DNA of 64,000 nucleotides from the human T2T-CHM13v2.0 reference genome, Homo sapiens (GCF_009914755.1 NC_060947.1); one strand, 5' to 3'; shown: positions 4,463-51,079, counted from the first letter of the stretch. Translations and numbers: made by a program. Notes: generated from the sequence alone by a model not told the origin.

Positions 4463-4505
<43 letters not shown>
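4463..4505. repeat. (CA)~21 microsatellite
   Basis: Seen directly. Confidence 0.95.
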
Positions 4506-4507
<2 letters not shown>

Positions 4508-4675
4508 TGCTATGTAAATAGTTGTTATACTATATTTTTTATTTTCATTATTTTATTGATATATATATGAATATATATCTGAATATATATATGAATAGTT
4601 TTGATCAGCAGTTGGTTGATTCCACAGATGCAGAACCCATGAATATGGAATACATGGTTATAGAGGGCTGATTGT
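4506..4675 (+). mobile_element. MER2-like (Tc1/mariner-Tigger) 3' half
   Basis: aaatgctatgtaaatagttgttatact...gttggttgattccacagatgcagaacccatg...gagggctgattgTA. Confidence 0.6.
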
Positions 4676-4822
4676 ATATACACATATGCAATCCATATCC
4701 ACGGATTATGCTGCTATATATAATTTTGTGTTCTCATTTTCACTTAACCATATATATATACACATACATGTATGTATATATACGTATATATGTATATACG
4801 TATATATATGCATATATATATA

Positions 4823-5135
4823 CAATCAGCCCTCCATATCCATGGGTTCCATATCCATGGGTCCTGCATCTGCAGAATCAACCAACCACTAATCAAAACT
4901 GTTCCCATAAAAAAACAAGAAAATAATACAAATAAAAACTATAGTATAACAACTATTTACATAGCGTTTGCATTGTGTTAGGTATGATAAGTAATCTAGA
5001 GGCAACTTAAACTATATGGGAGGATACGTATAGGTTATATGCAAATACTATACCATTTTATATCAGGGATTTGACCATCACAGATTTTGGTATCCACGGG
5101 GGTACTGAAAGCAATCCCCTACAGATACTGGGAGA
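4823..5135 (-). mobile_element. MER2-like DNA transposon
   Basis: TAcaatcagccctccatatccatgggttcc...agtaatctagag...ttggtatccacgggggtactg..atcccctacagatactg. Confidence 0.65.
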
Positions 5136-16912: not shown

Positions 16913-17281
16913 TATATTGTCTGAAATATTTTATACATGGACAATTCCCAGTGAACAAATTTGTCATTTGGCCACTTTCTGCATGTAGATCAGGTTATAC
17001 ATATCATTCATTTTCAGCCATTGTCTATAATTTCTATAATATATAATATATAATTTCTATATCATTCTCAGTTTTCCCCCAAAATATGCCAGAATGGTAA
17101 CTAAGGAAACAGGCGAATGAATGTTTAACTTTGTTTAAACATGTACTGCAATACACATGATCATTTTGATAAAAAGTAATGATTTTCAGTTTTGAGAAAG
17201 ATTTATAAGTTAGCAAATCCAGAACATGAAGCAATACACCAAATAATTAAAGAAACCAACCTCAGTAATACAGATGTCTAT

Positions 17282-17287
17282 TTTATT
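17282..17287 (-). terminator. Distal polyadenylation signal AATAAA of RAP2C
   Basis: Minus strand reads TTTAATAAAATAGACATCTGTATTACTGAGGTTGGTTTCTTTAATTATTTGGTGT: the hexamer plus a GU/U-rich downstream element. Confidence 0.75.
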
Positions 17288-17740
17288 AAAAAAGTTACAA
17301 ACAGGTGGACTGCAGGGTCGTCTTACAAAATGACAAGAATGAAATCTATTGGAAAAATTTTACTTTTACAAATCTTTATAGGTAATTGTTCAATGTTTGT
17401 ACTTGTTATTTGAGATTTTACCTTTCACTGATAAAGTTACAGTACATTAGATCCATGATAATAGGTTACATTATTTTATTTGCAGAGCCCTACTGCAGTG
17501 ATTTGAACAACTCCTAAATAGATGCCATAATAAAGACAAGACATATATTGCATTTAATATTAATTTATTATCCTAATAAGCAACATGCAATCTATTGAGG
17601 AAGCTAAAATAACTTTTGGTCCCTTTTCTTAAAATGTGCTGGAGAAACCACCTTTAAAATCACTTTCCCCTGATTCCTGCGATCCTAAGTGAATTCAAGT
17701 CAAATTTGCTGCTGAGGTCAATGACAATGAACACTGTAAT

Positions 17741-17742
<2 letters not shown>

Positions 17743-17778
<36 letters not shown>
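17743..17778. repeat. (GA)n microsatellite, (UC)n in the RAP2C 3' UTR
   Basis: Seen directly. Confidence 0.95.
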
Positions 17779-17784
<6 letters not shown>

Positions 17785-20300
17785 GAACACAATCTACAGG
17801 AAAGAAACATTATAAAAAAATCAAAATCTCTAGAAAATTTAAATCATGATGAATTATTTGATTCCTTTAGAATTTCACAAAGCCACAAAGCTAATAACAA
17901 TGATCCATGATCACTTAACCTACTTTTAAATGAGTGTTTGGTTTTAAGTTTGGTATTAAAGTGCAAACTTAAATTAAGTATTCACTTCAAGCAGTTCATA
18001 AATAAGGAACAATGTTTCAATTGCCTCTATCTTTACAATCTCACCATAAAATTCAAAATTTAAGAACAAGAGTTCACTTTGAGGGAATTTGCTCAGGAAT
18101 CAAATGCAACACGATTTAAAAAAAGGAAATCAAAGTTTAGTCAATTTCTACTCAGTAATTAATGGTCATGCTGACCCATAAATCACATGAATGTAGATAC
18201 CACTTTATTTGAACATCACACACAATATAAATTTAAAATTGCCACACCCTTTCATAAACCATCACTGCATATATTAGAGCTTTCCTTGACAAAGTTATTG
18301 AGCTCTTATTATAGATCAAAAGTATAGTTTTGGTTTTGTTTTATTTTATTTAGAAGCATGTTCAAATGACTAAAGCTGGGCTCCTAAAATCGAGAACTTT
18401 GGTGCAGTAGGTGAGCTGCAGTTACTAACTTCTGCAAATGAAAAGCACACAACTAAAATCAAATAAAAACCCAACAATAAAATACTGTCAAACTTACACA
18501 ATTTAAAAATCATTGCTAGAAAAAGCCCTCATTGTCACGATGTTAAAACTGAACCAAAATATTACTCTGCATAAGTTTCCTTTCTGATTCTACACCTGCG
18601 TTACTGTTAAAATGTTCAAGTATTCAGACAAAAATATGCTGATTAGGTAAACAACATGGAAGGCAATGGCTATTAGAAAGCACATTTGCAAAAATAAAAA
18701 ATAGCCCAGAGACTTGGCGCTATTCTCCCTCCTGTTACACAGATTTTGTCTCTAATACGAACATGCTTCTTGAGAAATAACTAAAAAGCAATTGTGATAG
18801 TGCAAGAAAACTTTAACAAATATTGCTTTAAACTATTATTCAGAAAGACAAATATTAAGAACTAGAAAGTGTGTATGATTTTATTTGAATTCAATTTTAC
18901 ATGTGCAGAAGTCTACTAGATGTCAATTACAAGCCTGATAGGCAAAGATGAGCTATCTCTGTTTAGGTATACAATTAATTTACCATGGATACAATATCCC
19001 TTTTCAAAGGCATTGCTAAATAGGTCATAACTAAATTTAGAACTTCACAGAAAGGAAAATGTTACTGCCGCAATTCAATGCTGTAAATGAGATTAACACA
19101 TGTGAAAACCTAATGGAACTGAATGCTTAACTCTTCAACTAAATGCTCTACAGTCAATTTCAAATATCAATTGTAACCTTCAGAACATGTTAATTACAAA
19201 AAAAAAAAAAAAAAAACAAAACACATCACAAACTGCACTTGAAGAAAAGGGATATTCCATCCATACAGGTAAAATGTGATCTTTAGTTTCTTTTTACAAC
19301 ACTGCCACACGTAAACAAAGTCTCAAAGTATTAACCAATAATTTTAAAGGAGAAAGATTTTACAAATAGGATGAAGCACTGGTACGAGGTAATATACAGA
19401 AGTAACCATTTGTTTAAGGCTCAATTTTTTCTCCATTATAACTTTCTTTTAAAAGGCATTGAGTAGGTAATACTGAGTTTGAGTATTTAATAAATACAAG
19501 TCGAGAAACTGATTAAAGAAATCAATTAAAATATTAAAAATTAACCCTTGTATATTAGCCATCAATAAGAACTTAGAAAGCTATAAAAGGACTGATTGAT
19601 AAAGAATGGATTTTAAACGTATGGTAAACGTGCTAAGCATTCCTGTTTAAGGTCGATGGATCTTGAAGGCCAAAGACCTTATGCACTTAAATAGATGTAT
19701 GGCAACATGCTGTAATAGAGACAGGTTTACCAAGGCTCAGTTCTGCAACCCAGGTTGTAAAGTTCTCCAAAGCAGCATCTGTGCAAATTTCCTCTGAGTT
19801 TTATCTGCAATTAAGATAAACATGTCATAAAAATGTAGAAATACATAGTTTAAAAAGAGAACACTGACAACAGATCTATATACACAGAGAAGTGGTAACA
19901 AGAATAACAAACTTCAGTTAAAGTAGAAAGTTAATTTTCCCTCGTCCTGATAAGTCATTAAAAAAAAATAGAAACACAGAAGTGATGCATTGGATATAAT
20001 GTACTTTGTGTGTGCGTGTGTGTGCGTGTGTGTAGCTATTCTAGCTTATTTCTATAATATTATTATGCCTTGTACTTGTATTATACTTATGCAATATTAA
20101 AAATGTCCTTACTGGTTTAAATGATCTTACAGTATAAAAGTTGTTGCAAATGCTGCTTCTACTTTGAACTTGATCTCTTCACATTTTAACTGGAAATGGT
20201 ATTGTTATCAAATGCATGTTAATTATGAGTTAATTGGCAGTATGTTAGACTTTTCCTAAATTTAGTTTTTTGAGAGATTAAAATAAGAAAACGTCATTCA

Positions 20301-20442
20301 GGCCGGGCACAGTGGTTCATGTCTGTAATCCCAGCACTCTAGGAGGCCAAGGTGGGAGGACTGCAGAAAGAAAAAAGAAAAGAAAGGAAAAGAAAAAAGA
20401 AAAGAGAAGAAAGAGGGAGGGAGGGAGGAAGGAAGGAAGGAA
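20301..20442 (+). mobile_element. Alu 5' fragment followed by GA-rich simple repeat
   Basis: ggccgggcacagtggttcatgtctgtaatcccagcact..., then (GAAAA)n/(GGAA)n. Confidence 0.75.
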
Positions 20443-22282
20443 ATTCAATCAAGGTCTAGATATTGAGCACCTACTAGGTGCCTAGGTAAGGTCAGATGCT
20501 AGGTGATAGCAGCAGTTCACATTTTCCACTTGGGTCTGCCCTTTTTTGGGGATGTCCTCCCAACCACGGGATCTTCTTTTATGACTGGGATTCCTCATTC
20601 CCTGCTCTTATAGCGTACAGATTTCTGCCCTTCCAGCTAATACTAGGGAAAAAAAATCTATCGTTCAGACAGATAGAGCGTCCTTCAACTGTGCTGAATC
20701 ACCAAATAGCTTCTAGGGGAATAGAGTTATGTTTGTTTTTGAACGCATGAGATAAAAAATGTTATCATAAAGCCAGAAACAAAAGTAGAACAGCAACTAT
20801 GAAAGAATGCCAAGGGAAACCAGTTTATAATCATTTAAGGGCTCTACCAATGTTTATAAATGCATAATTTTAATTTCATTTGACAGCTACACTTCTATTA
20901 GTGCTCAAAGAGCCTGAGATAATGCTTTATTAGCAGCTATATCATAAAAATGATTACTATTAAAGAACATCACTCTGCTCATTATTGAAATTCTGCTACC
21001 TAAACACATTAGGAAAAAATAGAACAAAAGTCTGCCTCTTTAGAAATTATTATAGAAACATTCTTCCAATTAAAAGACATTTTGCATTAAATTGTTAATT
21101 AGGACACCAGTTATTTAAGCTTTGGCAAGTCCGGTTTCCTCATCATCGAAAAAGGGATAAAAATACTTTCTTCACAGGGTTGTTGTAAATTTGTTTTCCA
21201 TTTCCAACTATGTTATAAATTTCTAGACTACCAGGATTGTAATTTTGATATCCAGACTAAGGAGCTTTATATTTTTTAGCCTAGCTGGAATTTCTATACC
21301 TACTTGAACACAACAGTATTTCATTATATATGCAGTATTATGAATAAAAATTATTCATTATGAATACTTTTTAGTAATTTAGAAAGACTTCCTTCAATTA
21401 GTTTGAATTAATGAATTTGCTATAAATTTTCATTTCCTTTTTTAAATCAAACAATTATAAAGAGGTTGGGATTTTCAAAAATAATTATTTCTCTTAAATA
21501 TTAAAGACCTCTTCAAGCATTCTCTAAAATCAAATTGAGAAAGTAGTTATTATTTATTTCTAGCCAAAATAAATATTAATAATCAAATCATTTTACTAAC
21601 CATAATCTATATGGAATAAAACATGATATATTAATCACCTCCTACCCTCTAAAAACCTGGGTAACATTTGGTCTATCCACATCCACAGGATGACAATACT
21701 CCTGTGAAATCAAGAGATATAGATAAATCCTGAGTTAGGCTCTACAATATTAACATTAGGCATACCTTTAAGCAAACAAAGTATTAATACTAGCTACTTT
21801 TCAAGAGAGTAATAAATTATAATTATCTGCAGTAATAAATCCTGAAGTAAAATGCTTGCATTAAACAAAAACAACAGTCTCTTTCAGGTTAGAATTTCAA
21901 GTGTAAATGTTCTTGCTCCCCAGTGACAGCAAAATTTTCAATATACTAACACTTTCATTTACGTAAAAATAAATCGCTGAAGGTTTAAAAGCAGCTGGTC
22001 AAATCAGTACTTTTTAACTTGCAGGATATCACATTCAAGCACGTTGCAAATGTATAACTTGCAGCTTTCAAGATAGAACACAAGTTATCCTCGACCTCAC
22101 TCTCAAGTTTCCAGCAAGACACTCAACAAATCTTATCTCTGGAAGCTTCTATTCAAACTCTTACTTAATTGTTTGGTTTTACTTTTTAGCTTTTTACTAA
22201 TGCAATATTATAGGAAAGTACAAAAAAAAAACCACACACACACACACTAATCCAAAGCTTTTGCTCAGGAAATTATGAAATA

Positions 22283-22520
22283 AATAGGGTCTCCCAAGTC
22301 GGGTAAATTGGTATACGAGAGTACCAAACACAGAACAAAAGGAACAAAGATCATTATTTATGTCAGCCTGAAGAAAAAAAGGGGATTCTTGATTCAAGAC
22401 TAGCACATCATTTCACATGGCAGCAGAATGCCTGGTATGTTAACAAAGGCTCCTGAAAGGCTTAGCAGTTTATGAATGTCTTTTTAGCTTAACTGGACTT
22501 ACCTTATCTAAATACAATGG
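22283..22520. repeat. Left arm of long non-Alu inverted repeat
   Basis: Reverse complement aligns with 24596-24861. The core 22384-22459 vs 24657-24732 is 70/76 identical. Confidence 0.92.
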
Positions 22521-22727
22521 TATTTACTAGCATTGTCTCTCTCTCTCTCTCACAAATACTAGTGTGTAATCATAATCACTTTTAATTTTTTTCTAGTTTT
22601 AGGGATATGATATTCTTGGGATTTAACCAAAATACTTTTTTTGAAAATGAATTTCCTTTCATATTTAATTAGCATTTTATTTACAAGTTAAAAGTTAGTT
22701 GTATTAGCAAAACATCAGGCTGCAATT

Positions 22728-23183
22728 ATAATTTTAATAAATTGTTATTTTAATAATGATGTTAATAAATCATCAAAAGTGCTATTTTAATAAAACATTA
22801 AATTATTTTAGTAATAATTTTAATAAAACATTAAATTATTTTAATAATTTTAATAAAACATTAAAATTATTATTTTAATAATAATTTTAATTTCAGAGAC
22901 AGGATCTTGCTCTGTCATCCAGGCTGGAGTGCAGTAGTGCAATTGTGGCTTACTGCAACCTGGAATTCCTGGGCTCAGGGGATCCTCCTACCCCAGCCTC
23001 TTGAACCGCTAGTACTACAGGCACACACCACCATACCCAGCTAAGTTTTTTATTTTTATTTTTTGTAGAGTCGGGGTCTCATTACATAGCCCAGGCTGGT
23101 CTCGAACTCCTGGCCTCAAGTGATCCTTCCACCTCGGCTTCCCAAAGTGCTGGGATGACAGGTATGAGCCACTGCATCTGGCC
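22728..23183 (-). mobile_element. AluJ with an expanded AT-rich tail
   Basis: Alu body ~22893-23183. The TSD tcaggctgcaatt (22715-22727) / tcaggctggaatt (23184-23196) encloses the AT-rich tract. Confidence 0.88.
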
Positions 23184-24595
23184 TCAGGCTGGAATTCCTC
23201 TGATACAGGTTATGTTTTTGTTAAATATCTTTTGTTTTGTTTCTCTATCCTAATGTGCATAATACTCATGAAGCTTACTAGGGTTGGAGTGGGAGGACTA
23301 GATCTTTAAACGTGTTCACTGTCACCCATTAAACACAGAGAGCAAAAGCGGAACCTATGGCATAGAATCCTTGAATGGAGGTGGAATCACACATGAAGGA
23401 AAGCAAGCTCACTAAATGTTTATAGTGAACCCAGGGTAGAAGGGATGGGATTAGCTATATTTCTTATGTACTAGACCTAAAATCTCTGAATGTTTAAATT
23501 AATATGATTAGTTCAATTCTGAGATCTCACATATTATAACCAAGTCCAGTGATAATAAACAACAGTGTGAGCCCAATGATACAATTCCAGCTGCTAGCTT
23601 TGAATTAGACCAGATAAGTTAGTACTCCCCTCAACTCTAAATTGCTTTTTCTGAATTTGATGTTTCTAAGATTGGCTAATTAAAACTACTTGGGAGTATG
23701 TTTTTGATTGGATATGTTTTTCTAACAGCTGACAGGACTTAAGTTTTTCTTACTGATATTATCTTCTGAATTGTAGAATTCTACTGAGAAGTAATCCCAT
23801 GGGGAGAATCTTTTCTGTAGTATGGCTAGAACACTTCCTTGGTGGCAATTCTCCAACTCTATGATGCAATTTTTGTTAATTCTACTGATAGTTCATTCTA
23901 AGCCAGAGAGGTAATGGAGTAAAACTGAATGGCTCATATGCATTTTATTATGCAATAAAAGCCTAATCTTGAGGTTAAAAGGAAGCAATTAAAGAGGGAA
24001 CAGATATACAAAGAGTCATTCTAATCACCAGACACCTCCACATCCAGAGCAGGTCTAACTAGGCACCTGTCCACTCTCAAGTCTCAAACCATGAACCAAC
24101 CCTATGAATTCAGTGAAGGTCTGGGAGAATTAGGAGTAGTAGAAAGGGCAAGGTGGTTTTGTTTTTCCCTTTTACCCAAGGTTCGCTGAGGGCCTTTATG
24201 GTACATACCACCCCCAAAGCATGCTTCTTCTTCCATTCAACTCCTCTGCTCCACTTTGACTCACCATGTGAACTGGATGACAGATGAGCATTTTAAATAA
24301 GCCATTTTCCCCATTCAAAGTGATATGCAAATAGAGCAGTGGGAAAAAAAGAACTATCTAACAAAACTATAACTTCTACAACAGAATTCCACCCCAGCAT
24401 TTTACTGATATTATTAATATTTACCTTGTATAGGAAATTTTAAGTATGTGATGTGATTTGAGGATTTTTCTCCTCACATTTGCTAAACCCCCAGCATACC
24501 ATAAAAATTAAAAACTAAAATTAAAAGTTAAAAAAATTAAAAACCATTCTGATTCTATATTTTATTTTAAAAAACCCTGAAAATGTTTATCAATT

Positions 24596-24861
24596 CCACT
24601 GTATTTAGGAATAGTAAGTCTAGCTAGACTAAAATGATGTTCAAATAGAGTTTAGTCTTTCAGTAGCCTTTGTTAGCATCCCAGGCATTCTGCTGCCATG
24701 TAAAATGACGTGCTAGTCTTGAACCAAGAATCTCCCTTTTTCTTCAGGCTGAAATATATAATGAACTGGGGCTGACATAAATAATGATCTTTGTCCTTTC
24801 AGTTTGCTTCCCTGTGTTTGGTACTCTTATGCACCATTTACTCTAGTTGGGAGAACCTGTT
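24596..24861. repeat. Right arm of long non-Alu inverted repeat
   Basis: Matches the reverse complement of 22283-22520. Carries an extra ~23-nt internal duplication (ggctgaaatatataatga..ggctgacataaataatga). Confidence 0.92.
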
Positions 24862-25244
24862 CCACAGTACACTGAGAAAAATGGTATAAAATCTTACAGG
24901 AGACCTTCAAACCACAGTGAATAACACCTTTTCCCCCATTTTCTTTCTTTATCACTTTCATCAATACTGGACTGACATAAAGGAATCCTTGAAAAATCAT
25001 CTTTAAAATATTCTATTTGCCAAAAGGATATATCAAACTGTCACATTTAAGAGACACCTTTACTGCACTTCCCCCTTACTATTAGGGAATCAACAGAATA
25101 TTTTAGGATATGATTATGCTCCTTCTTGGCATTCTTTCTGTTTGAAGGTCAACACTGACACCCCCCACCCCTACCACCAGTCCCCTCAAGTCCTATCCAT
25201 CTTCAAAGCCTGATTCAAATGCTATTGCTCCCAATATCTCTAAC

Positions 25245-25430
25245 TCGGTGGCGCTTAACCAAGGGCAATTTTTGTCCCCAGGGGGCATTTGGCAATTTCT
25301 GGAGATATTCTTGTCATAATGGGGGATGAGGAAGATGCTACTGTCATCTAGTGGGTAAAAGCTAGGGATGCTGTTAAACATCTGACAATGCACAGGACAG
25401 CCCCAAACAGCAAAGATCCCAGAATGTTAA
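25245..25430. mobile_element. MER20-like hAT element
   Basis: ggggcatttggcaatttctggagatatt...atgctactgtcatctagtgggtaaaagctagggatgctgttaaacatctgacaatgcacaggacagcccc. Confidence 0.75.
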
Positions 25431-28384
25431 GAAACTCTGTTCCAGTTGGTTGTGGTCTCTCCTTTCCCTGAACTCCCACAGGACAGTGATTTACTTCTTT
25501 TATAGTACTATGAGATTATTAACAAAACATCAATCCTTCTCAACAAAAATATACCCAAACAGTGAACTGCCAATAATTTATACCAGCACAGAAGAGCTAT
25601 GATATAGTGAATGAAACCAGAACAGGGTGACAATGCTGACCCGGGTTTCCATTATACTGCTGCCATACAGCAAAAGAAGTCCCTTCAAAGCACTTGATCA
25701 TACGCTCCTCAGATCAGTAAAGAAATCAGGATGATGGCAGCGTATAAGGAATCTGGTTATGCTTCCAAACTTACACTAAAGTTACTGCCAATGGGAGGGT
25801 AAAAGGTGAGGAAACAATCCTGGGAGCCACGCAGATAAACAGGTGTTAGGCACGAGGCCTGTGACCCAAATTGAAAGATGTTAAGACATAAATGTGAGGA
25901 ATTATCAGAAGCAATTCTTAGAGCATTAATAAATTTTCCCTCTCAGTTAAAAACAACCAATTAACAACAATAACAGTGTTTCTGATTTACATCCTATTAT
26001 TTCTAACTTGGACAAGGTACTCTTCTAAATATTAGCGACAAACATTTCTCAAATCAACTTTACCTGTCAAAGTTTGATATTCAATTTAGATCTGGGTCTG
26101 ACAGATTTCAAAGCTCCATGACTCAAGCTATAGGATTCAAAATCCACCATCTATTTTCTTCTCTTCTTAGGTAAATGGTGAGCAAGGACAACCACAAATT
26201 TTACTAGCCTCAGATTAGAGATTCCCATATATGGGAATCAGTTCAATTTTATTTGATGTCAGAAAAAAAAAAAACCTGCATATAGTGCACTTTGTTCTAA
26301 AAGATCTTGGTCAGGGAGTTCCCCTTAATATTTTTAGAAATTCAGTTTATTGGATATTTTATTTCAAGGCTAATATCTTCATTTATATATTCTGCTTACA
26401 AAAACAAACAAAAACCTACACAGAGAACTTGACCCACTACTATAAAAATGAATATAGGTATTAATAATTTCCATTTTTAGTATGTTAATTAACAAAAAAT
26501 ACAAATATAGTTGGCTTGAGATACTAAAAAAAATCTATGTACTCATTCCTGTAGGTAACTAAATAGGTTAAAAATAATTCAGATCACAAAAAGTTACCAA
26601 ATGAAATAAACTCAGAAATGATTCAGAAGAAGAGGTTCAAAAATAGCTTTAGAAATTATTCACCTGCCAATTTGGCTGAGAGAGCTGGCTCTCTACATGT
26701 ATGAGACCAATTTTATTCAGTTAACCTCCTATAGCTGTCTACACTAATGATGGAAGGAAAACTGGGAACATTTCGTGGGAGTTGGTTAATTTTTAAAAAG
26801 ATGATAAAACTAACACAAAATGTGTATAGACACTTACGTTATCTGCCCAGTAAGTGTCAGGTAGAAAAATAGAGCAAAACAGTAAAGACACAATCACCAC
26901 ACAGAACTTGTTCAATTGTGAAGCTGGCTTACAATTTAAGGAGAGAGATTACAGCAGCAAGAATATGGGACTTGATCCATAAGCCTCTCCCCTCCTCAAA
27001 AGACTATACTGCAAGTACAATGCTATCAACCAAACACAAGCTGGACTATGGTCTGAAAAGTGACTTTATAAAATAATAGATGTAGCTAGACATAAGAAAA
27101 TAAATGAGTTTTCATCATATTCTGGTATGCTAAAGGCTGATGAGTGAAAGCATTTTAAATAAAGCATTGTTGTCATCCTTCATTTTCAAAGATGACACTA
27201 TCTGACAGGAGACCTTGTCTGAAAAGATAAATTAGGGACCGTTAGTCTTTTCTCCGGGGAGCATACACAAAGCCAGACCCTTGATTAGGAATCATTGCTC
27301 CAATCTGAAATGCCTGTTGCCATTTGCAACACTGCCTCCTAGACTCGAGGTCAGCCTTGGCTCAGGAAGATCAATTTCATTCCTGATACTGTCAGGCTAG
27401 TCTGGCATTTGCTGCGGTTTCTCAGTCATTCACAATATTGGTTGTTTTATCTTATTATCTAAGTGTTACTGTCTAAGTGAGACTATTTGCTCAATTACAA
27501 TCTAGACTAAAAGATCATGGCATAAATAATCTTGTTTTAAATGCTTCGTAAGTTTTACATAATCTTACTTTTAAAAAAGTATGAGTTTTAAAAAAAAACT
27601 CATTCATTAAAAAAAACTTGTAAGTTATCATTTAACTCAGTGAAAGGCCTGAAGGTTTGTTACTGTTCCTATTAATCTCATAATTTATTAAATTGAATAA
27701 ATTTTTTTATGCATGAAACTGTTCCTTCTAACACATCACAGATAATTCAACTAGATTATCTTTTGGACCGTATATTTATAATGAAGTCAGGGTACACTGT
27801 GGCACTATAATTTGTTATTATCAGAGGTCACTTAAGTCCCTCAAGTGTTAGGTACAGATGAATTTGCTTAAATAATTGTACTGTTAATCAAGCACTTGGT
27901 GATTAGTAAATTGGTGATTTTAATTGCAGCAATTTGCTTGCTCAGGACATAAAAACATAAAAGTACAGAAAATACCACAAAACTTCTGAAATTATTACTC
28001 AGTGCTCTCCTGTGCATTCTGGATGCTAAATCAGAAGAACAGGGAAAAAGTGTATTATGGTTTAACTCAACCCAAAGAAATATTACCAATAAAGCAGAGA
28101 AGGAAGAACAATAACTCACTTAAAATCCTGGTGATGGGAATATAAGCAATTTCTTATCTCCGCTTTGCTTATCTGCATTTAAAAAAATTTTCTTCATTGA
28201 ATGTTGACTATTTTGTGTGATGGAAAATGTTATTTTAAAAATAAAGAAATTTAAGGCAGTGCCATATGTATTAACACTAACCAGCTTTTTGTTTTACTTG
28301 ATCAAAAAACAAAACACTACCTGATTCATACAGTTCCATCAAAAACTAACCTGCTCGGTATGGCCATGATTGAGGTTATCTTCT

Positions 28385-28663
28385 TTACTGGACGACACAA
28401 GTTGTACAACACTGATCTTGCTTCTCCGGCAGGGATGAATAGTTCATTTGCCTGACGATCTCAGCAAAAAGTTCATCCACCATTGATTTACTTTTTGCCG
28501 ATGTCTCCATGAAAGGACAGCCCCATTCTTGAGCCAGAGCTCTGCCTTCTGAAGACATAACCTCTCTTTCTGGTTCCAGATCCACTTTATTTCCTACTAG
28601 GATTAGTGGGACTTTTTCATATCTCTTCACTCTGACAATTTGATCTCTCATTGGCTTGATATC
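28385..28663 (-). CDS. RAP2C: RAP2C coding exon 2 (codons 92-183 plus stop)
   Basis: Acceptor TTTCTCTTTTGTGATTGCTTGAATAG|GAT. Encodes DIKPMRDQ...GNKVD...ETSAK...CCTTCVVQ*, containing NKxD, SAK and a CAAX motif (CVVQ). The 183-aa total matches RAP2C. The exon continues 34 nt past the stop to donor CAG|GTTAGT at 28351. Confidence 0.98.
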
Positions 28664-31212
28664 CTATTCAAGCAATCACAAAGAGAAAGAAAAACATTAT
28701 GCTGTTTGTATAACCATAACAGAAATATTACAGTATTACAAAAAGTCATACCTCAGTGAGTATACAAAGCTGAATCCAAAATGAAATCACACCTAAACAG
28801 AGAAATCGTCATCATTTTGTCCACTGAAGTAAGAACTAGATAATTTCCAGAGACCCTACCTGCTGGGTTTGTCAAGAATATAAAACATGGGTTGCACACT
28901 AACCTTGACTCATATAATCACTTTTACCCACCCCCAGTCTATACTGATTAAAAAAGCAAGTTTCCAAATGATTAATCCATTCGTACATAAGGATGTTTGG
29001 CCATCTCCCTAAACCTGCCTGCTTGTCATCACTCCTTGTAACACCTGTTATCCTAGCACAGGATTGCAGCATCTATGCATTCCTAGCCATGTAGCAAGAG
29101 GGCTTGAGTGAAAGTGTTTTAAGTGGGAAAAAAAACCACTTTGTAATGCCTAGAATAAAAGAGTTACAACCAGATGGATACACTTAAATGTTTTATTTTA
29201 AATTGAATGGTATGCATTTATTCCAGTAAAATCAAACACCTTACAATACACTTAAATTCACTAGAAACTACTGTAACAGTGAGCAACTCCTGGGAAGGAC
29301 AGTGCAAGGGGAGTCTGGGTGGGAAGAAGTCATTTTTTTTTTTTTTGCCTGTGTTTGTTTTTACTACTTGTTTCCCCATGCGTATTACTTTTTCCAAGTA
29401 GTTACAACGAATTACAAAAGATAAGAGCGTTAGCAATTCTCCAGTAGCATCAGTTTTGGGAGGTGGGGGCAAGTATTGATTTAATACAATATTATAGACT
29501 TAATTATAAAAATCACCATTTTCGGTAATATTTCATAATTTTAAAAGTTTGCCTTAAATAGAAAATGTATGCTTAATTGGAAGTCATAGTAAGTACAGAA
29601 TATTCACATGTGGGCCTACGGAAAAGCAAGGGACTATGAAAATCTATAAAAATATAGTTATTTGATATTTGCATCAATTTGGTTTGATAATATATCAACT
29701 CAGATTTCTAGGTTACGCTTATTTCCCATTGTCTTTATGGAAACATAAGTTCAGCTGAAAATCCAAACTTAGGGCATTTGGGCTCAAAAGAGTTTACACC
29801 TCCACTGAAATAACGGCACAGTTTTTCACTCCCAATTCATGTCTATAACACAAATGGATATAACAGAAATCTTATGAAACACCCTTCAAAAGACTCTCAG
29901 CCTCCAGAGAGTAAGCTGATAGAATAACAAATCTCCTGAGGATCCTTTAGGGAAAAAATGCCTGTCAAACAGCACCTTCAGTACTTTGGTACTTTCTGGG
30001 GGAAAATGCTTTTATGATACTATTGTTTGGGAATTTATGCCTACATAAAATGAATTTAGTTTGGTCTCAATAGCTTTGATTTATTTCCCCAGAATTTATC
30101 ATCTTAAAAAAAAAAAATCCCTGAAGTTGTTCTATCAGGTTACTGGGAAAGTTCACTATAGTACTTTAATTTAAAATACTAAAGAAAGTGGAATTAGCAC
30201 ATTGTATTGGCTAAAGCACTTAAGGTCTCTTAAGTAAGCTACATTAAGTGCATACCTTTAAATGCAGAAAAAATATATCCATTTCCTAAATCAATGGAGG
30301 TCAATATAATGGGTCAATATGAGGTTATTCATTTTCAAGGGATAAATAGAAACATACATTGCATATCCTAAAATAACGTTAAACCTTCAGTCTGTTTCCC
30401 AGTGAAGGACAGGACAGATTTTCTAAGAGATTGGACCACATCCAGTTTGGCCACCCAGCCGGAGTAAGAAATCTGCACTTGTTCAGTGTTCCCAGACCCA
30501 CGTATTTTCTGTAAATACAGGCAATGTTACCAGAAACAATTTGGATCAACTGCAGAAAAAGAGTCATTCCTGATTTTTGTTGGTTATTAATTCTAGGTAC
30601 TAGTCTTTTCTATTAGTAACTTTTCTTCCTACTACACGCCCCAAGTAATTAAGTAAAATGCCTAGAAGGCAGGTCTTGAGTTCTTCGTCTTGCAACACTA
30701 AGATTTATGAATCTAGTTGAGAAACTTGAGAGAGAAGGGGAGGGCGGCGGGAGGGGGTGTTGGGGGGTGGGAGGGGAAGGTGTGGGTGGGACAGACACAG
30801 AGGACTTATCTGTGCAACAGATAATCGGCTCCAAATAATTTTTTCAAAGTGCTCTATTTACCCGAGATTATTTGTTAGATGTTTTGTCGTGTAAGTTAAT
30901 CAATACTTGTTGAATTGAGCAAGCAACTTCAGAAGGTTATATTCCAGGCGAAATATACACAGACTGACATTTCTTTTTCACTTTTCTTTCACTTAAAAAT
31001 AGCTTTAAAATATTTGTTGACGCTTGTTACTTTTTACTACGCTCTATAGAAACAACCCGATAGTCTTCCATGGCAGGAGTAACCTCAAAAATGCGTCATG
31101 TCTAACTTTCAAAAGCAAAGCACAGTCATTAATGCACGGTTCAAGCAACCCAGAAGTCGATGTCGGATTACCACACCCCCTTCTAACAAATTACAAGACT
31201 TGGTTTGGTTAC

Positions 31213-31485
31213 CTGAAAAGACTGTTGATTAACCAGGCTATAAACCAGGATGAAACCTTGGCCGTTTTTGATGTAGAGATCTCTCATGGAGGCAAACTGC
31301 TCAGTTCCTGCGGTGTCCAGAATTTCCAGCACGGAGGGGGAAGAGTCCACTTCGATCTCTTTGCGGTAGAAATCTTCAATGGTGGGGTCATATTTCTCAA
31401 TGAAAGTCCCAGTGACAAACTGCACAGTAAGGGCAGATTTGCCAACCCCTCCACTCCCTAACACCACTACCTTGTATTCCCTCAT
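31213..31485 (-). CDS. RAP2C: RAP2C coding exon 1 (codons 1-91), Ras-related protein Rap-2c
   Basis: Translates [17 protein letters not shown]...YDPTIEDFY...DTAGTEQF...QQSFQ, with the G1-G3 boxes and Rap-type T61. ATG at 31485. Phase-0 donor CAG|GTAACC at 31213/31212. Confidence 0.98.
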
Positions 31486-32023
31486 GAGTCTCACCTTCAC
31501 CAACTCCTACCAGAGGGGGGGAAAGATCACCCCGCTAGCTGTGGCGCGGCTAGACGAGGCGGAAGGTGGGCGGAAATCTGCGAACTGGGGAGGAGAGTGC
31601 AGAGGAGCAGAGGGCCCAACCGGGGAAGAAGAGGAAGTTACAGGAGGGGGAGGGGAAAGAGCGTAGAGTCGGGGAGGGTGGGGAAGGGATGGTAATGCCC
31701 TTCCTATAGGAACTGCAGCCCGAGCAGGGGGCGTGGGGAGGAGGGCGAGCCTGGGAAAAGCCCGGCGAGGGTGGCGAGGAGGCGCGTGCCCCCGGGAGGG
31801 AAAGGGTGGGGGCTGCGGCGAGGGGACCCTGCGGCGAGGCGGACGTCGGAGGAGCCCGCAGCCCGGGGCTGCCCGGCACTCCTCCCCCGCCCTTCACACA
31901 AAGGGGCCCAGGGACCCCGCTTCCTGCTCGCGCAGCCCAGCCGGCTCAGGCCTGAGGGCTCCGTTCCAGTTACCGCTGCCCGGGCGGGTTTCTGGGCCCC
32001 GGCTCCCGCGGGGGTCGTCCGGC
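31486..32023 (-). other. RAP2C: 5' UTR portion of the RAP2C start-codon exon
   Basis: Strong acceptor CCTTCTCCCCTTCACAG|GCC at 32024/32023. No upstream ATG in these 538 nt. An alternative acceptor TCTTTCCCCCCCTCTGGTAG|GAG lies at 31507/31506. Confidence 0.65.
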
Positions 32024-32132
32024 CTGTGAAGGGGAGAAGGACGCACATTACCCGGCTGACCCCCGCCCCGAACCTGCGGCGCCGGCCGCCGCCTCCCCCA
32101 ACTCCCACCCGGATCAAGCTACTGCCGCTTAC

Positions 32133-32400
32133 CCCGCCGTCCGCACCCGCCCGGCCGCCGGGGAGGCTCTGTCACGCCAAGGCCATGGCCACCCGCTGGC
32201 TCCTCTGTCTCTCCGCTGCCCCAGCGCTGCTGCTCGCCGCGGGGAAAGAGGCGGGGGCCGTCCGGCGGCGGCCGCAGGGACTCCAGGCGAACCCACCTCT
32301 TTTTTTTCTCACCCACCCCCCACCCCCACCCCCACCCCCACCCCCACCCCCACCAAGCACACACCCGGAAGGGTTTCCCTGACACACTGGCTGAGGTGCC
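32133..32400 (-). other. RAP2C: Non-coding 5' exon of RAP2C (5' boundary uncertain)
   Basis: Donor GGG|GTAAGC at 32133/32132 pairs with the 32023 acceptor across a 109-nt intron. Lies in the CpG island. Confidence 0.55.
32311..32354 (-). repeat. (TGGGGG)n hexamer repeat, G-quadruplex-forming
   Basis: About 7 tandem CCCCCA units on the + strand. Confidence 0.9.
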
Positions 32401-32578
32401 CCAGTTCCCCGAGACTGGACGGGATCACTTCCGGTGGGGAAAGTCCCACCTCTTCGGGGCGAGCCGGGTGGCGCTGGAGCCGCGCCCTGCTGAGCGAGCG
32501 AGCCGGCCGGGGACGGTTTCGGGTCGGGACTCCGGCTTCGGGAACGGGCCTCTGGAAACCTGCGACGTCAGTCCTTAC

Positions 32579-33720
32579 CCGCCCGCGGCTGCCGCGGACC
32601 GTCCCACCCCCAAACCCGTAGAAGCCCCTCCGACCTGCAACCTCCAGCCGCCCGGCCCTAGGACTTGAGCGGCTCCCTGGCCGGTGCGGAACCTGCGGGC
32701 TAATAATCTAGCGACCGGGAGAACGCCAAACATCCCTGGACTAGAAGTTGCAGGGGAAATCAAACAGCCCAGAAAGTTTATTCTCCTTGCTGGTATTTCT
32801 TCCACTTGCTATTTTGCTGAGAGATGCATGCAAACTACCCTTAGACTTTCAGATGCAGTGCGTTTTACTTAGCCGTGCCTGACAAACACACAGAACTTTT
32901 ACCGTCTGGTAGATCCGCCTTGACTTTACCAGCGAATACTAAAGTCACTTAAAAAAAAATCACAAGGCTCGAAAACAGCAGCATTAGAAGTAGACTTTAT
33001 GGTACTCTGCTCAGCTATGTTCTCATTTGATTCCAACCACTACACGGCAGAAAAGGTAACCAATATTCAAGAAAGATTTGATTGGAAACGGTTTAGGCCT
33101 AAAGACTAATTTATTTTAATCGTTGATTATGTATAACAATTTGCTTGGCTGGCTCTTACATGCTGAAGTTTTGTTTTAAAGGCCATCCTATGTAGTCTTT
33201 GAAATTCAAAAGCAAGTAGTAACTCTGGTGTTAGATTCTAAGTTTCTATTTTTAGATAAAATTGTTACTTCCGACTATCTTTCCCTTTGCTAGCTTTCTA
33301 TTTGTAAACTTTGTGTCGGATCCACAGAGCCCCAGGGCCAGGAGTCTAGGCTGTATTTTAGGTGTGTCACTTTCTTTTCAATTCAAGCATGTACCCAGAA
33401 ACCTGCGAGACTCAGTGGCCAGCCTAGCAAAAATGACTCCAAATTCCCTTACTTACAAGCCCTAAATGGCCAAACTCTATAAAGAGATTTATTACTCAGC
33501 CTAAATTGTTGGACATTAGAACACAGGCGAATCATAGTAGTGTGAGGTCCCACTGTCCCTCCCTGAGTATTCCCCAATGTCACTTACAGTCTTCAAAGGA
33601 GAGTTTAGTTCAATTTCTCCTTGACCTCAGGCCGGTGCCATCTCTCCAGCGAAGTCCCCAGCTCTGGCTCCAGCTGGCCTGGGCCCTGTGTCGTATCAGA
33701 GGCACTGCCCTCTGCTGGAA
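32579..33720 (-). other. Candidate further upstream non-coding RAP2C exons
   Basis: Minus-strand donors CGG|GTAAGG (32579) and ACT|GTAAGT (33588). Candidate acceptors at 32740 and 32816. Exon usage cannot be confirmed from sequence. Confidence 0.4.
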
Positions 33721-37798: not shown

Positions 37799-38345
37799 CT
37801 GTAAAGCGGTAGGACATTATTTGGGGCTTTCTTGCTTGATACTCATTAATGTATCCACTCATTCATTTATCACACAGTTATTGAATTCCTACTCTGTGCC
37901 AAGCACTTTACTAGCATTTTTGAGGAATATAGACAATACAATCAACATTACAGTATAGCGTGGCACATCCTGTGATACAGATATCGGCCAGGGTGTTATG
38001 GGAGACTTAGGAAGGGTATCAGGGAAGATTTCCTAGAGAAGGTGATTGGGCAGTAGGCAAGGAGGCCAGAAGAATCGGTAGGGGCTAGAACCATAGGGGA
38101 AAGCCTTGAGTAGTAAGCTAAGGGGTTTGACTTTTCCCCTGGAGGCTGTAGGAAGCCATGGAATGTGTTTTTACAAAGGTCTTAATTGCGGTATACAAAA
38201 TCAGGGGCTAGCGACATCCATGCCAGGTTCAACCATTGGCTGTGCTGCATATGTAGCCTGAGGCAAGTTACTTCTTACCTTCTCTGAGCTTCTCTTTCAT
38301 CATGTGTGAAGGGAAAATATTAATAGATCTACCTTATTTGGGTAT

Positions 38346-38703
38346 TGTGAAGATTAAGTAAGAAAAAGTGCCTAAGTACCCATCATATGGTAGGTGTTTA
38401 ACAAATGGTGATTATGATCAGGTTTAAGCCATAGAAAGAAATGACATGTAAGACATGCTTCTCAGGTTATTAAAATCCATTTGAAATTGCCAAGCTAGTC
38501 TCAATATCAAGGCCATATTTGATGTGAAGATTAAGTAAGAAAAAGTGCCTAAGTACCCACCATACGGTAGGTGTTTAACAAATGGTGTTTATGATCAGGT
38601 TTAAACCATAGAAAGAAATGACGTGTAAGACAGGCTTCTCAGATTATTAAAATCCATTTGAAATTGCCAAGCTAGTCTCAATATCAAGGCCATATTTGAT
38701 GTG
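38346..38703. repeat. 177-bp direct tandem duplication (2 copies)
   Basis: Copies start at 38346 and 38523 and differ by 7 substitutions. TGTG occurs at all three junctions. Confidence 0.95.
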
Positions 38704-41540: not shown

Positions 41541-41945
41541 TGTTTTAGGTCATTCTTGTGTTGCTAGAAAGAAATACCTAAGGCTGGGTAATTTATAAAG
41601 AAGAGGTTTAACTGGGTCAAGGTTCTGCAGGCTGTACAGGATACATGGCATGTGCATCTGCTGGCTTCTAGGGAGGCCTTGGGGAGCTTTTACTTATGGT
41701 GGAAGGTCAAGCAGGAGCAGGCAGGTCACACGGGGAAAGCAGGAGCAAGAGGAAAAGAGCAGGAGGTGCCACACACTCTTACACAACCAGATCTTGCAAC
41801 AACTGACTCACTATAGCAAGGACAGCACCAAGCCATGAAAGATCTGCCCCCATGATCCAATCACATTCCACCAGGCCCCACCTCCAACACTGGGGATTAC
41901 GTTTCCACATGAGATTTGATGGGGACACAGATCCAAACCATATAA
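41541..41945 (-). mobile_element. MaLR LTR (MST/THE1 family)
   Basis: tgttttaggtcattcttgtgttgcta..gctgggtaatttataaag...atccaaaccatat. Confidence 0.8.
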
Positions 41946-50080: not shown

Positions 50081-50735
50081 CATTACATATATGTGCGTAC
50101 ATGTACGTTGTAATTATATGTGTATGTATATATAATTACATATAATTACAATGTACATACTATTTTGTACTCTGCTTTCACTTAAATACCTGGCACGAAA
50201 CCCTTTCATGTCATTAACAGCAACATATTAATATCTACAAGTTCATTTTAAAATGTTAATGATTCCAGAGGAGATTTATGTCTCCATGTCTTTCCTCAAA
50301 TGATGGATTCTCTGGGTCTACTTCCTATCATGTGCAAGACAGTGTCATTTGTTTACATTATAGAAGTGGGTCTGATTGTAGAGTTTGCATCCTAGACTCC
50401 GACATTTCTCTTTGAGGCTGTAGGTTGGGTTGGGTTTTGTGAGCTATTTTGAATATTTTGAATTCCTTTCAGGATCAGTGATAAGTGAGGAGGTAAGAGA
50501 GATAAATACAGAGGATACGCTATGTAGAGAATTCAGAAAAACAAGAGACTTTTGGATTTATTATCTAAAGGGAGATAATCCAATTCAGAGTCACTACCTG
50601 AGATACTATGGGAACTGACAGTCTCCAAAGGCTATGTTTTGCTAAACCACAGCATATTTCCACGAATTAGGACACAAGGGATGGTAAAGATTTGTGGCAA
50701 TAGATATTTGCGTCATTTAGAAATGTCAACTAGGG

Positions 50736-51079
<344 letters not shown>

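What the first reader, a model, noticed from the sequence alone, without database searches (positions are those of the whole stretch)
22283..24861. Long non-Alu inverted repeat in the RAP2C 3'-UTR intron, predicted to form a ~230-bp pre-mRNA duplex
Seen: 22283-22520 is the reverse complement of 24596-24861, with about 2.07 kb between the arms. The 76-nt core (22384-22459 vs 24657-24732) has 6 differences. Three of these become G-U wobbles on the RAP2C (minus) strand, giving 73/76 paired. The flanks are visibly more diverged, and I recognise neither arm as a TE. Inference: an old duplication whose core was kept complementary by selection or conversion. It could act as a long-range RNA structure (ADAR substrate, splicing regulator or looping element) in the intron that starts 34 nt after the stop codon.
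Basis: partly seen in the sequence, partly recalled or inferred. Interest (0 to 1): 0.8.

Follow-up and report, generated by a model that had tools for sequence, protein, structure and literature searches.

The report
Unique old palindrome in RAP2C intron
The inverted repeat is real, larger than reported and found nowhere else in the human genome, and it should fold into Alu-like double-stranded RNA in the RAP2C pre-mRNA, but nothing here shows it was kept for a function.

Summary
The arms 22283-22537 and 24579-24861 are reverse complements (E 8e-46). The 76-nt core has 6 differences, and 3 of them are G-U on the RAP2C strand.

Once an Alu that landed in the left arm is removed, the homology runs inward to 23515/24092. 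The structure is then a palindrome of about 2.1 kb, with arms of about 770 nt and a 576-nt spacer.

It is a two-copy sequence. Two DNA searches and three of four exhaustive motif searches of the T2T genome found only the two arms. The fourth motif's other matches that I fetched (28 of 120) did not extend. Two positive-control repeats from the same window gave 7,756 and 1,464 candidates. I found no target-site duplication, no ORF longer than 82 aa, and no Pfam or Rfam match in the arms.

Divergence has two tiers with a sharp break at 22460/24656. The outer tier is 88% identical (K2P 0.13) and the inner tier 66% (K2P 0.45).

The predicted sense-strand duplex (210 bp, 52-bp helix, ddG -185 kcal/mol) matches inverted Alu pairs. 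The antisense strand folds equally well, and G-U-compatible differences show no strand bias (14 vs 15).

Best reading: a neutral relic of an old local inverted duplication, partly re-homogenised, and an incidental dsRNA (likely ADAR) substrate. Cross-species conservation could not be tested.

The parts
22283..22459 (.). Left arm, outer (well-preserved) tier.
   Evidence: 154/175 aligned columns identical, K2P 0.133 (15 transitions, 6 transversions). The change point is at 22460, with 2-lnL support 22449-22467. The outer edge is sharp: no homology outside it (z -0.1 and 0.8).
24657..24861 (.). Right arm, outer tier. It carries a 7-nt insertion and an extra tandem copy of about 23 nt (about 24747-24769) relative to the left arm.
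   Evidence: Alignments A1 and A2. The repeat finder pairs I2 and I3 show that the single left-arm copy matches both right-arm copies at 89-90%.
22460..22717 (.). Left arm, inner (diverged) tier, part A, up to the Alu insertion site.
   Evidence: Local score 28 vs 13.6 +/- 2.1 in shuffles, 0 of 200 reach it. The same pieces compared in direct orientation score at chance.
22718..23197 (-). Later insertion in the left arm: an Alu (body 22894-23185, sense to RAP2C), its AT-rich expanded tail (22730-22893), and flanking 12-nt target-site duplications at 22718-22729 and 23186-23197 (11/12 identical).
   Evidence: Rfam SRP-like hits on the minus strand at 22894-23041 and 23066-23182. TSD strings printed. 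The right arm lacks the insertion, and homology resumes after it. Only 4 CpG remain in 292 nt.
23198..23515 (.). Left arm, inner tier, part B.
   Evidence: blastn 23187-23515 vs 24394-24092, 59.5% over 336 columns, E 1.5e-6. Local score 26 vs 10.7 +/- 1.5, 0 of 200 shuffles.
23516..24091 (.). Non-palindromic spacer (576 nt).
   Evidence: The two halves compared in inverted orientation score at chance (z -0.2). No ORF of 60 aa or more and no Pfam match.
24092..24656 (.). Right arm, inner tier.
   Evidence: The inner tier overall has 361/545 identical, K2P 0.452.
22384..22435 (-). Longest uninterrupted predicted helix (52 bp, G-U included), formed with 24681-24732 in the RAP2C-sense RNA.
   Evidence: MFE of the 2,979-nt sense RNA 25061->22083.

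Best explanation
This is a unique, old local palindrome. About 0.77 kb of RAP2C intron sequence was duplicated in inverted orientation around a 576-nt spacer. That happened long ago, since the inner arms have diverged to K2P about 0.45. An Alu later landed in the left arm. The outer 177 nt of the two arms were made alike again much later, by gene conversion or re-copying with a sharp tract edge at 22460/24656, and have since diverged to K2P about 0.13. Because the whole structure lies inside the constitutive 8.5-kb 3'-UTR intron, every RAP2C pre-mRNA carries both arms. These should fold into an imperfect stem of about 200 bp in the outer arms (about 400 bp in all), with a 52-bp helix, looping out about 2 kb. 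Such a stem is energetically equal to an inverted Alu pair. It is therefore most likely bound and edited by ADAR1 in the nucleus and discarded with the intron, as a by-product and not a selected device. Shown: existence, extent, uniqueness in the genome, two-tier divergence, folding potential. Inferred: mode of origin, conversion, ADAR editing, neutrality.
For: Extent and significance. Uniqueness: the DNA searches with 22283-22540 and 23198-24900 each gave 2 first-look candidates, self and partner. The same tool gave 7,756 and 1,464 candidates, scored at 70-81% identity, for two other repeats of this window. A 25-mer and a 35-place motif shared by the arms occur nowhere else in 3.1 Gb at up to 3 mismatches. 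No transposon hallmarks: 0 candidate target-site duplications within +/-15 nt of the ends, vs a mean of 1.27 at 300 random position pairs. The longest ORF is 82 aa and lies inside the Alu. Pfam found 0 families in the 9 ORFs I submitted of the 15 listed; the 6 left out lie in or overlap the Alu and its AT-rich tail. Two tiers with an abrupt switch. Fisher p 6.6e-6 for a 22540 cut. No RNA-strand signature: equal duplex gain on both strands, and G-U-compatible differences 14 vs 15 in the outer arms, 46 vs 52 overall. Folding: ddG -184.7 kcal/mol, 210 bp, vs -12.9 +/- 4.1 for 30 shuffles. The arms pair in the MFE of the 2,979-nt context, with 198+51+154 bp. Three inverted Alu pairs of the window give ddG -179 to -248, 214-244 bp, longest helices 26-38 bp.
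Against: Gene conversion between arms that were already strongly diverged elsewhere is inefficient in mammals (general knowledge). It is not obvious why it would be confined to the outer 177 nt. A sharp edge is equally what a functional element under constraint, or a transposon's terminal inverted repeat, would show. Identity inside the outer tier is uneven: 78% outside vs 93% inside 22344, dlnL 3.8, which is within the permutation range of the whole-arm test. No cross-species data, polymorphism data or RNA data could be consulted, so neutrality and editing are untested.
Confidence: 0.5

Rival explanations
1. Selected long-range RNA structure. The outer 177-nt tier is kept complementary because the stem does something for RAP2C pre-mRNA. 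It might shorten the effective intron, mask the strong 3'-splice-site-like motif in the left arm, or serve as a platform for dsRNA-binding proteins.
For: The outer tier has diverged 3.4 times less than the inner arms, with a sharp edge. It holds a 52-bp uninterrupted helix, longer than in three Alu pairs. RAP2C has only one full Alu and a 51-nt inverted fragment, so this is by far the gene's strongest long duplex: ddG -185 vs -47 kcal/mol for Alu x fragment. The sense-strand motif TTTTTTTCTTCAG|G lies within a predicted 13-bp helix, 22365-22377.
Against: There is no strand asymmetry in energy or in G-U-compatible differences. In the 125-nt best block, 6 vs 3 is not significant. Large bulges (7 nt and about 23 nt) sit inside the tier. 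RAP2C is absent from the held supplements of a conserved-complementary-region catalogue and of two editing/dsRNA papers. This is weak evidence, because the full catalogues are external files.
Confidence: 0.15
2. Relic of one insertion of a very-low-copy non-autonomous DNA transposon of about 2.1 kb. Its long terminal inverted repeats (the 177-nt tier) were near-identical at insertion. Its subterminal regions were only loosely palindromic in the element itself.
For: Sharp outer ends with the best similarity near the termini, fading inward, and a unique middle. The two ends begin AAYAGGKTCTCCCAA, which from memory resembles hAT-type termini. That is a recalled lead, not a test. No coding capacity, as in non-autonomous elements.
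Against: No other copy in the genome. By my binomial arithmetic, zero further hits of the shared 25-mer at up to 3 mismatches limits a family to about 13 copies if each is 20% diverged from the ancestor, and about 90 if 30%. Terminal repeats at K2P 0.13 imply a fairly young insertion, whose siblings would be easy to find (controls). No target-site duplication. The 3 extra hits of the terminal motif are no more than the reversed-pattern control's 9, and do not extend convincingly.
Confidence: 0.2
3. Two independent insertions, in opposite orientation, of a known old dispersed repeat.
For: Searches here cannot see relatives below about 65-70% identity. The 66% inner-tier partner was itself missed by the genome search. 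A very old low-copy family therefore cannot be excluded.
Against: The arms are collinear over about 770 nt, with both ends matching and mirror-symmetric around one spacer. The outer tier is 88% identical, yet nothing else in the genome is detectably similar.
Confidence: 0.05

Closest known systems
Inverted-repeat Alu pairs (IRAlus) in introns and 3' UTRs, the main ADAR1 substrates in human
   Same: Intramolecular dsRNA of about 200 bp formed by two inverted copies a few kb apart in one pre-mRNA. The predicted duplex gain and number of pairs fall in the range of three IRAlu pairs of the same window.
   Different: The arms are not Alu: Rfam SRP-type hits lie only in 22894-23182. The arms are unique in the genome. 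The longest perfect helix is longer, 52 vs 26-38 bp. Editing has not been shown here.
Pairs of conserved complementary regions (PCCRs) / long-range pre-mRNA structures (Kalmykova et al. 2021, PMC8052449; I saw only the search listing with the start of the abstract and a supplement search)
   Same: Two complementary intronic regions within 10 kb in one human pre-mRNA, proposed to affect processing.
   Different: PCCRs are defined by evolutionary conservation of both regions, which I could not test. This duplex is also far longer than the short complementary segments I recall for that class. RAP2C does not occur in the 5 held supplementary files.
Palindromic MITE-like dispersed repeats, e.g. the one at window 4495-4978
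   Same: Old palindrome with arms about 66-69% identical.
   Different: That element has 1,464 first-look candidates, and the copies scored lie on many chromosomes. The RAP2C palindrome has none, is four times longer, has a 576-nt unique spacer, and has a second, much better preserved tier.
Large X-chromosome palindromes kept alike by arm-to-arm gene conversion (recalled from the literature, not read here)
   Same: X-linked inverted repeat around a unique spacer. Arm-to-arm conversion is the proposed cause of the well-preserved tier.
   Different: As I recall, those have arms of many kb at over 99% identity and often carry genes. Here the arms are 0.77 kb, 66-88% identical, intronic and non-coding.

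Membership tests
Dispersed transposable-element family (any class) | Multiple copies dispersed in the genome | tested here: not met
   Both DNA searches found 2 first-look candidates, self and partner. The 25-mer and the 35-place motif at up to 3 mismatches occur only in the two arms. Positive controls gave 7,756 and 1,464 candidates. Limit: relatives below about 65-70% identity are invisible to these searches.
Dispersed transposable-element family (any class) | Target-site duplication flanking the element | tested here: not met
   0 direct repeats (6 nt or more exact, or 8 nt or more with 1 mismatch) within +/-15 nt of 22283/24861. Random position pairs give a mean of 1.27. Old duplications may have decayed.
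Dispersed transposable-element family (any class) | Terminal inverted repeats with sharp ends | tested here: met
   Homology starts abruptly at 22283/24861. This is equally expected for an inverted duplication.
Dispersed transposable-element family (any class) | Transposase or other element-encoded protein remnant | tested here: not met
   15 stop-to-stop ORFs of 45 aa or more; the longest (82 aa) is inside the Alu. Pfam found 0 families for the 9 of these 15 that I submitted, at E <= 0.1; the 6 left out lie in or overlap the Alu and its AT-rich tail. Non-autonomous elements need none.
Inverted-repeat Alu dsRNA | Both arms are Alu elements | tested here: not met
   All 4 Rfam matches at E <= 1 lie in 22894-23182. 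blastn with that Alu hits 13 other places in the window, and neither arm.
ADAR-edited long dsRNA | Long, largely uninterrupted intramolecular duplex in a transcribed RNA | tested here: met
   In silico only: 210 bp, ddG -184.7 kcal/mol, a 52-bp helix, and the arms pair in the 2,979-nt MFE. Both arms lie in one annotated intron (hub table).
ADAR-edited long dsRNA | Observed A-to-I (A>G) clusters in RNA | not testable with these tools
   No RNA-seq or REDIportal access. RAP2C is absent from the held supplements of PMC12695637 and PMC4365171, which hold only part of those data.
Pairs of conserved complementary regions (PCCR) | Both regions evolutionarily conserved, with compensatory changes | not testable with these tools
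   No vertebrate genomes or alignments are held. The genome tool states the window's genome has no relatives here.
Known structured RNA family (Rfam) | Match to a covariance model | tested here: not met
   No match at E <= 1 in either arm or the spacer.

The most novel reading that the evidence does not exclude
The 177-nt outer tier is a selected, non-repeat long hairpin in the constitutive 3'-UTR intron of RAP2C. In this reading the two arms co-evolve to keep a dsRNA stem of about 160-200 bp. The stem would mask the strong cryptic 3' splice site in the left arm and/or recruit dsRNA-binding proteins (ADAR1, ILF3, Staufen-type) to control removal of the intron in an unusually Alu-poor gene.
Probability: 0.12. 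Interest if true: 0.6.

Novelty: new member of a known kind. Interest (0 to 1): 0.3.

Why it matters
If it is only a relic, it is one more non-Alu intronic inverted repeat. It is still a clean one: unique sequence, a 52-bp helix, and almost no competing Alu in the gene. That would make it a convenient natural substrate for studying ADAR or dsRNA-sensor behaviour on non-repeat dsRNA, with unambiguous read mapping. If the well-preserved tier is conserved across mammals, it would be a rare example of a very long selected pre-mRNA duplex in a human gene. The two-tier divergence with a breakpoint resolved to about 20 nt is also a tidy case for asking whether short, old palindromes undergo arm-to-arm conversion.

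Tried and rejected
(1) I built a sequence-only covariance model of the two arms (R1), but this genome cannot be searched by a model. I went on with the DNA and pattern searches the tool offers.

(3) The 21-mer ACATGGCAGCAGAATGCCTGG at up to 3 mismatches gave 122 places. I fetched 28 of the 120 non-arm places, and none aligns to an arm beyond 36 nt. The other 92 were not examined. The reversed-pattern control (1 hit) is a poor yardstick because it contains CpGs.

(4) The terminal motif gave 3 extra places (control 9). The best extends to 77 nt at 65% including the seeded match, which is not convincing.

(5) A G-U strand-bias test for RNA-level selection found no bias. Transcription-linked mutation asymmetry would in any case blur this test.

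(6) The search for target-site duplications found none.

(7) ORF and Pfam scans for a transposase remnant found none.

(8) Literature. 'RAP2C' + 'inverted repeat' found 5 papers. 'RAP2C' + 'ADAR' + 'editing' found 6. 'RAP2C' + 'intron' + 'hairpin' found 7. Judged from titles and abstract starts, none concerns this structure. Two arm motifs typed as text found 0 papers. Supplement look-ups for RAP2C in PMC12695637, PMC4365171, PMC8052449 and PMC10691357 found 0 occurrences. The large site and structure tables of these papers are external or only partly held, so this says little.

(9) I considered homology to RAP2C exons or the UTR and rejected it. The only other in-window hit of an arm query is a 30-nt stretch at 17731-17759.

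Full report

Yes, exactly as described.
- The repeat finder reports a 163-nt inverted pair 22375-22537 / 24579-24741 at 80% complementarity, with three further collinear pieces out to 22306/24839.
- blastn within the window aligns 22283-22537 to 24861-24579: 285 columns, 72.6% identity counting gaps, E 8e-46.
- The 76-nt core 22384-22459 vs 24657-24732 has 6 differences. Three are G-U on the minus (RAP2C) strand, one is G-U on the plus strand, and two cannot pair on either. That gives 73/76 on the RAP2C strand.
- The gene context given by the hub also checks out. The two coding parts translate to a 183-aa Ras-family protein ending in a stop. 34 nt of exon follow the stop. The intron 19805-28350 (8,546 nt) has GT...AG ends. 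The right arm lies 3,489 nt from the 5' splice site and the left arm 2,478 nt from the 3' splice site.

**2. The structure is larger than reported.**

A relaxed self-comparison of the intron extends the inverted alignment to 22727/24385. It also finds a second collinear piece, 23187-23515 vs 24394-24092.

An Alu lies between the two pieces.
- Rfam gives SRP-type hits on the minus strand at 22894-23182.
- The Alu has an expanded AT-rich tail at 22730-22893.
- It is bracketed by a 12-nt target-site duplication, 22718-22729 and 23186-23197, with 11/12 identical.
- The right arm has no such insertion.

With the insertion removed, a single local alignment runs 22283->23515 against 24861->24092. It has 815 columns, 720 aligned and 515 identical, and scores 155 against 14.9 +/- 1.7 in 100 shuffles.

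The inner parts are significant on their own (z 6.9 and 10.4; 0 of 200 dinucleotide shuffles reach them). The same pieces compared in direct orientation, the two halves of the middle, and the sequence outside the ends all score at chance.

So the original object was a palindrome of about 2.1 kb: two arms of about 770 nt and a 576-nt unique spacer (23516-24091), with sharp outer ends. The Alu is younger than the palindrome.

**3. Is it a known or dispersed repeat?**

Not detectably.
- The left arm (22283-22540), and separately 23198-24900 (inner left arm, spacer and whole right arm), were searched against the 3.1-Gb assembly the window comes from. Each gave two first-look candidates: itself and the partner arm.
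- The same tool has the needed sensitivity. A non-Alu dispersed repeat of the window (41562-41943) gave 7,756 candidates, of which 40 were scored at 77-81% identity.
- Another, much more diverged palindrome of the window (4495-4978, arms 69% alike) gave 1,464 candidates; the 40 scored yielded 175 matches on many chromosomes, mostly at 70-91% identity.
- Exhaustive pattern scans agree. A 25-mer and a 35-place motif shared by the arms occur nowhere else at up to 3 mismatches.
- A 21-mer gave 120 further places. I fetched 28 of them, and none extends beyond 36 nt.
- A terminal motif gave 3 further places, fewer than its reversed control, and none extends convincingly.

By my binomial arithmetic, the 25-mer result caps any family at roughly 13 copies if each copy is 20% diverged from the ancestor, or roughly 90 copies if 30%. 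That rules out the common Mesozoic and primate families but not a very old, very small one.

Other negatives:
- No candidate target-site duplication at the ends: 0 found, against a mean of 1.27 at random position pairs.
- No ORF over 82 aa, and that one is in the Alu.
- No Pfam family in the 9 ORFs I submitted of the 15 listed; the other 6 lie in or overlap the Alu and its AT-rich tail.
- No Rfam match at E <= 1 in the arms or the spacer.

The ends read AAYAGGKTCTCCCAA. From memory this looks a little like hAT-type termini. I could not test that and give it little weight.

**4. Two tiers of divergence.**

A likelihood change-point scan of the 720 aligned columns puts a single break at 22460/24656, with 2-lnL support 22449-22467.
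- Outside the break, 154/175 columns are identical (88.0%; K2P 0.133; 15 transitions, 6 transversions).
- Inside it, 361/545 are identical (66.2%; K2P 0.452).
- The gain in log-likelihood is 17.4, against a maximum of 7.5 in 500 permutations.

With a neutral rate of about 2e-9 per site per year (recalled, rough), the inner tier would date the duplication to roughly the age of Mesozoic repeats. The outer tier would date to a few tens of millions of years.

Three causes fit an abrupt switch:
- a conversion or re-copying tract;
- a functional element under constraint in both arms;
- the terminal repeat of a transposon whose subterminal parts were only loosely palindromic.

The third needs a single-copy family of moderate age, which the searches make unlikely. 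I cannot separate the first two without orthologues.

**5. Is there a signature of selection on the RNA?**

None that I could find.
- The two outer arms cofold with ddG -184.7 kcal/mol and 210 intermolecular pairs on the RAP2C strand, and -183.9 kcal/mol with 221 pairs on the opposite strand. Shuffled partners give -12.9 +/- 4.1.
- Transition differences, which give G-U on one strand and A-C on the other, split 14:15 in the outer arms and 46:52 over the whole palindrome. In the best 125 nt the split is 6:3, which is not significant.
- Known transcription-linked mutation bias would, if anything, favour G-U on the sense strand. So the test is weak in both directions.

**6. What it would do when transcribed.**

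Both arms lie in one intron of all listed transcripts (hub table). In the MFE of 2,979 nt of sense RNA the arms find each other.
- There are 198 pairs in the outer arms, and 51 and 154 in the inner parts.
- The longest uninterrupted helix is 52 bp, 22384-22435 with 24732-24681.
- Three inverted Alu pairs from the same window give ddG -179 to -248 kcal/mol, 214-244 pairs and longest helices of 26-38 bp.
- The RAP2C unit itself has only one full Alu (in the loop, sense orientation) and a 51-nt inverted Alu fragment at 20310-20360. Their pairing is worth only -47 kcal/mol.

So this palindrome is the dominant long duplex of the RAP2C pre-mRNA. By analogy with IRAlus it should be an ADAR1 substrate. 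That is an inference; no RNA data were available.

**7. Literature.**

Full-text searches pairing RAP2C with 'inverted repeat', with 'ADAR' and 'editing', and with 'intron' and 'hairpin' returned 5, 6 and 7 papers. Judged from titles and abstract starts, none concerns this structure. The arm motifs occur in no paper. RAP2C does not occur in the held supplements of two dsRNA/editing papers and two long-range-structure papers. The full catalogues behind those papers are not held, so this does not show absence.

**8. Verdict.**

The feature is real and unique, and it is better described as an ancient 2.1-kb palindrome with a re-homogenised or constrained 177-nt outer tier.

The most likely account (about 0.5) is a neutral relic of a local inverted duplication whose transcript forms incidental, Alu-like dsRNA. 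A low-copy transposon relic (0.2) and a selected RNA structure (0.15) remain open.

It is a new member of a known kind, the non-Alu intronic inverted repeat. The decisive data are Dfam annotation, mammalian orthologues, and editing or duplex reads. All of these exist publicly but were out of reach here.

Noticed in passing
window 4495-4978: A second palindrome (self-inverted, 68.8% over 516 columns) that is a dispersed repeat. The genome search gave 1,464 first-look candidates; the 40 scored yielded 175 matches, with copies of its ~140-nt arm on many chromosomes at about 70-78% and a ~75-nt central piece that also occurs in tandem arrays (e.g. C8:108.67 Mb). It looks like an old MITE-type element. 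Family not named.
   Followed up: partly
window 22718-23197: An old Alu (4 CpG left in 292 nt; 71-79% identical to the window's other full-length Alus), sense to RAP2C. Its tail has expanded into an AT-rich minisatellite of about 165 nt (units like ATTTTAATAA). 12-nt target-site duplications are still 11/12 identical.
   Followed up: yes
window 17262-33665: The RAP2C transcription unit is strikingly Alu-poor. It has one full Alu and one 51-nt fragment (20310-20360), while the flanking 30 kb on either side hold 12.
   Followed up: partly
window 22363-22381, minus strand: On the RAP2C sense strand the left arm reads CCCCTTTTTTTCTTCAG|GCTGAC, a strong-looking 3'-splice-site motif. It lies in a predicted 13-bp helix with the right arm. 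It was not scored with a splice-site model, and no exon is annotated there.
   Followed up: no
window 38346-38703: Tandem duplication of 181 nt at 96% identity (38346-38526 vs 38523-38703), overlapping the end of the RefSeq enhancer 37971-38500.
   Followed up: no
window 50101-50158: A short perfect-centre palindrome (58 nt, 83% self-complementary), just upstream of an Alu at 50736-51034.
   Followed up: no
outside the finding (locus-level): A gestational-length GWAS lists an indel, rs200879388 (chrX:131,300,571 in that paper's build), under the RAP2C locus (PMC5561422; passages read). I did not map it to the window. By my recalled gene coordinates it lies outside RAP2C, and nothing links it to the palindrome.
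   Followed up: no
window 22539-22552 and 22224-22248: Small microsatellites: (CT)n inside the left arm, where the right arm has unrelated sequence, and A10(CA)n about 35 nt outside the left end.
   Followed up: no
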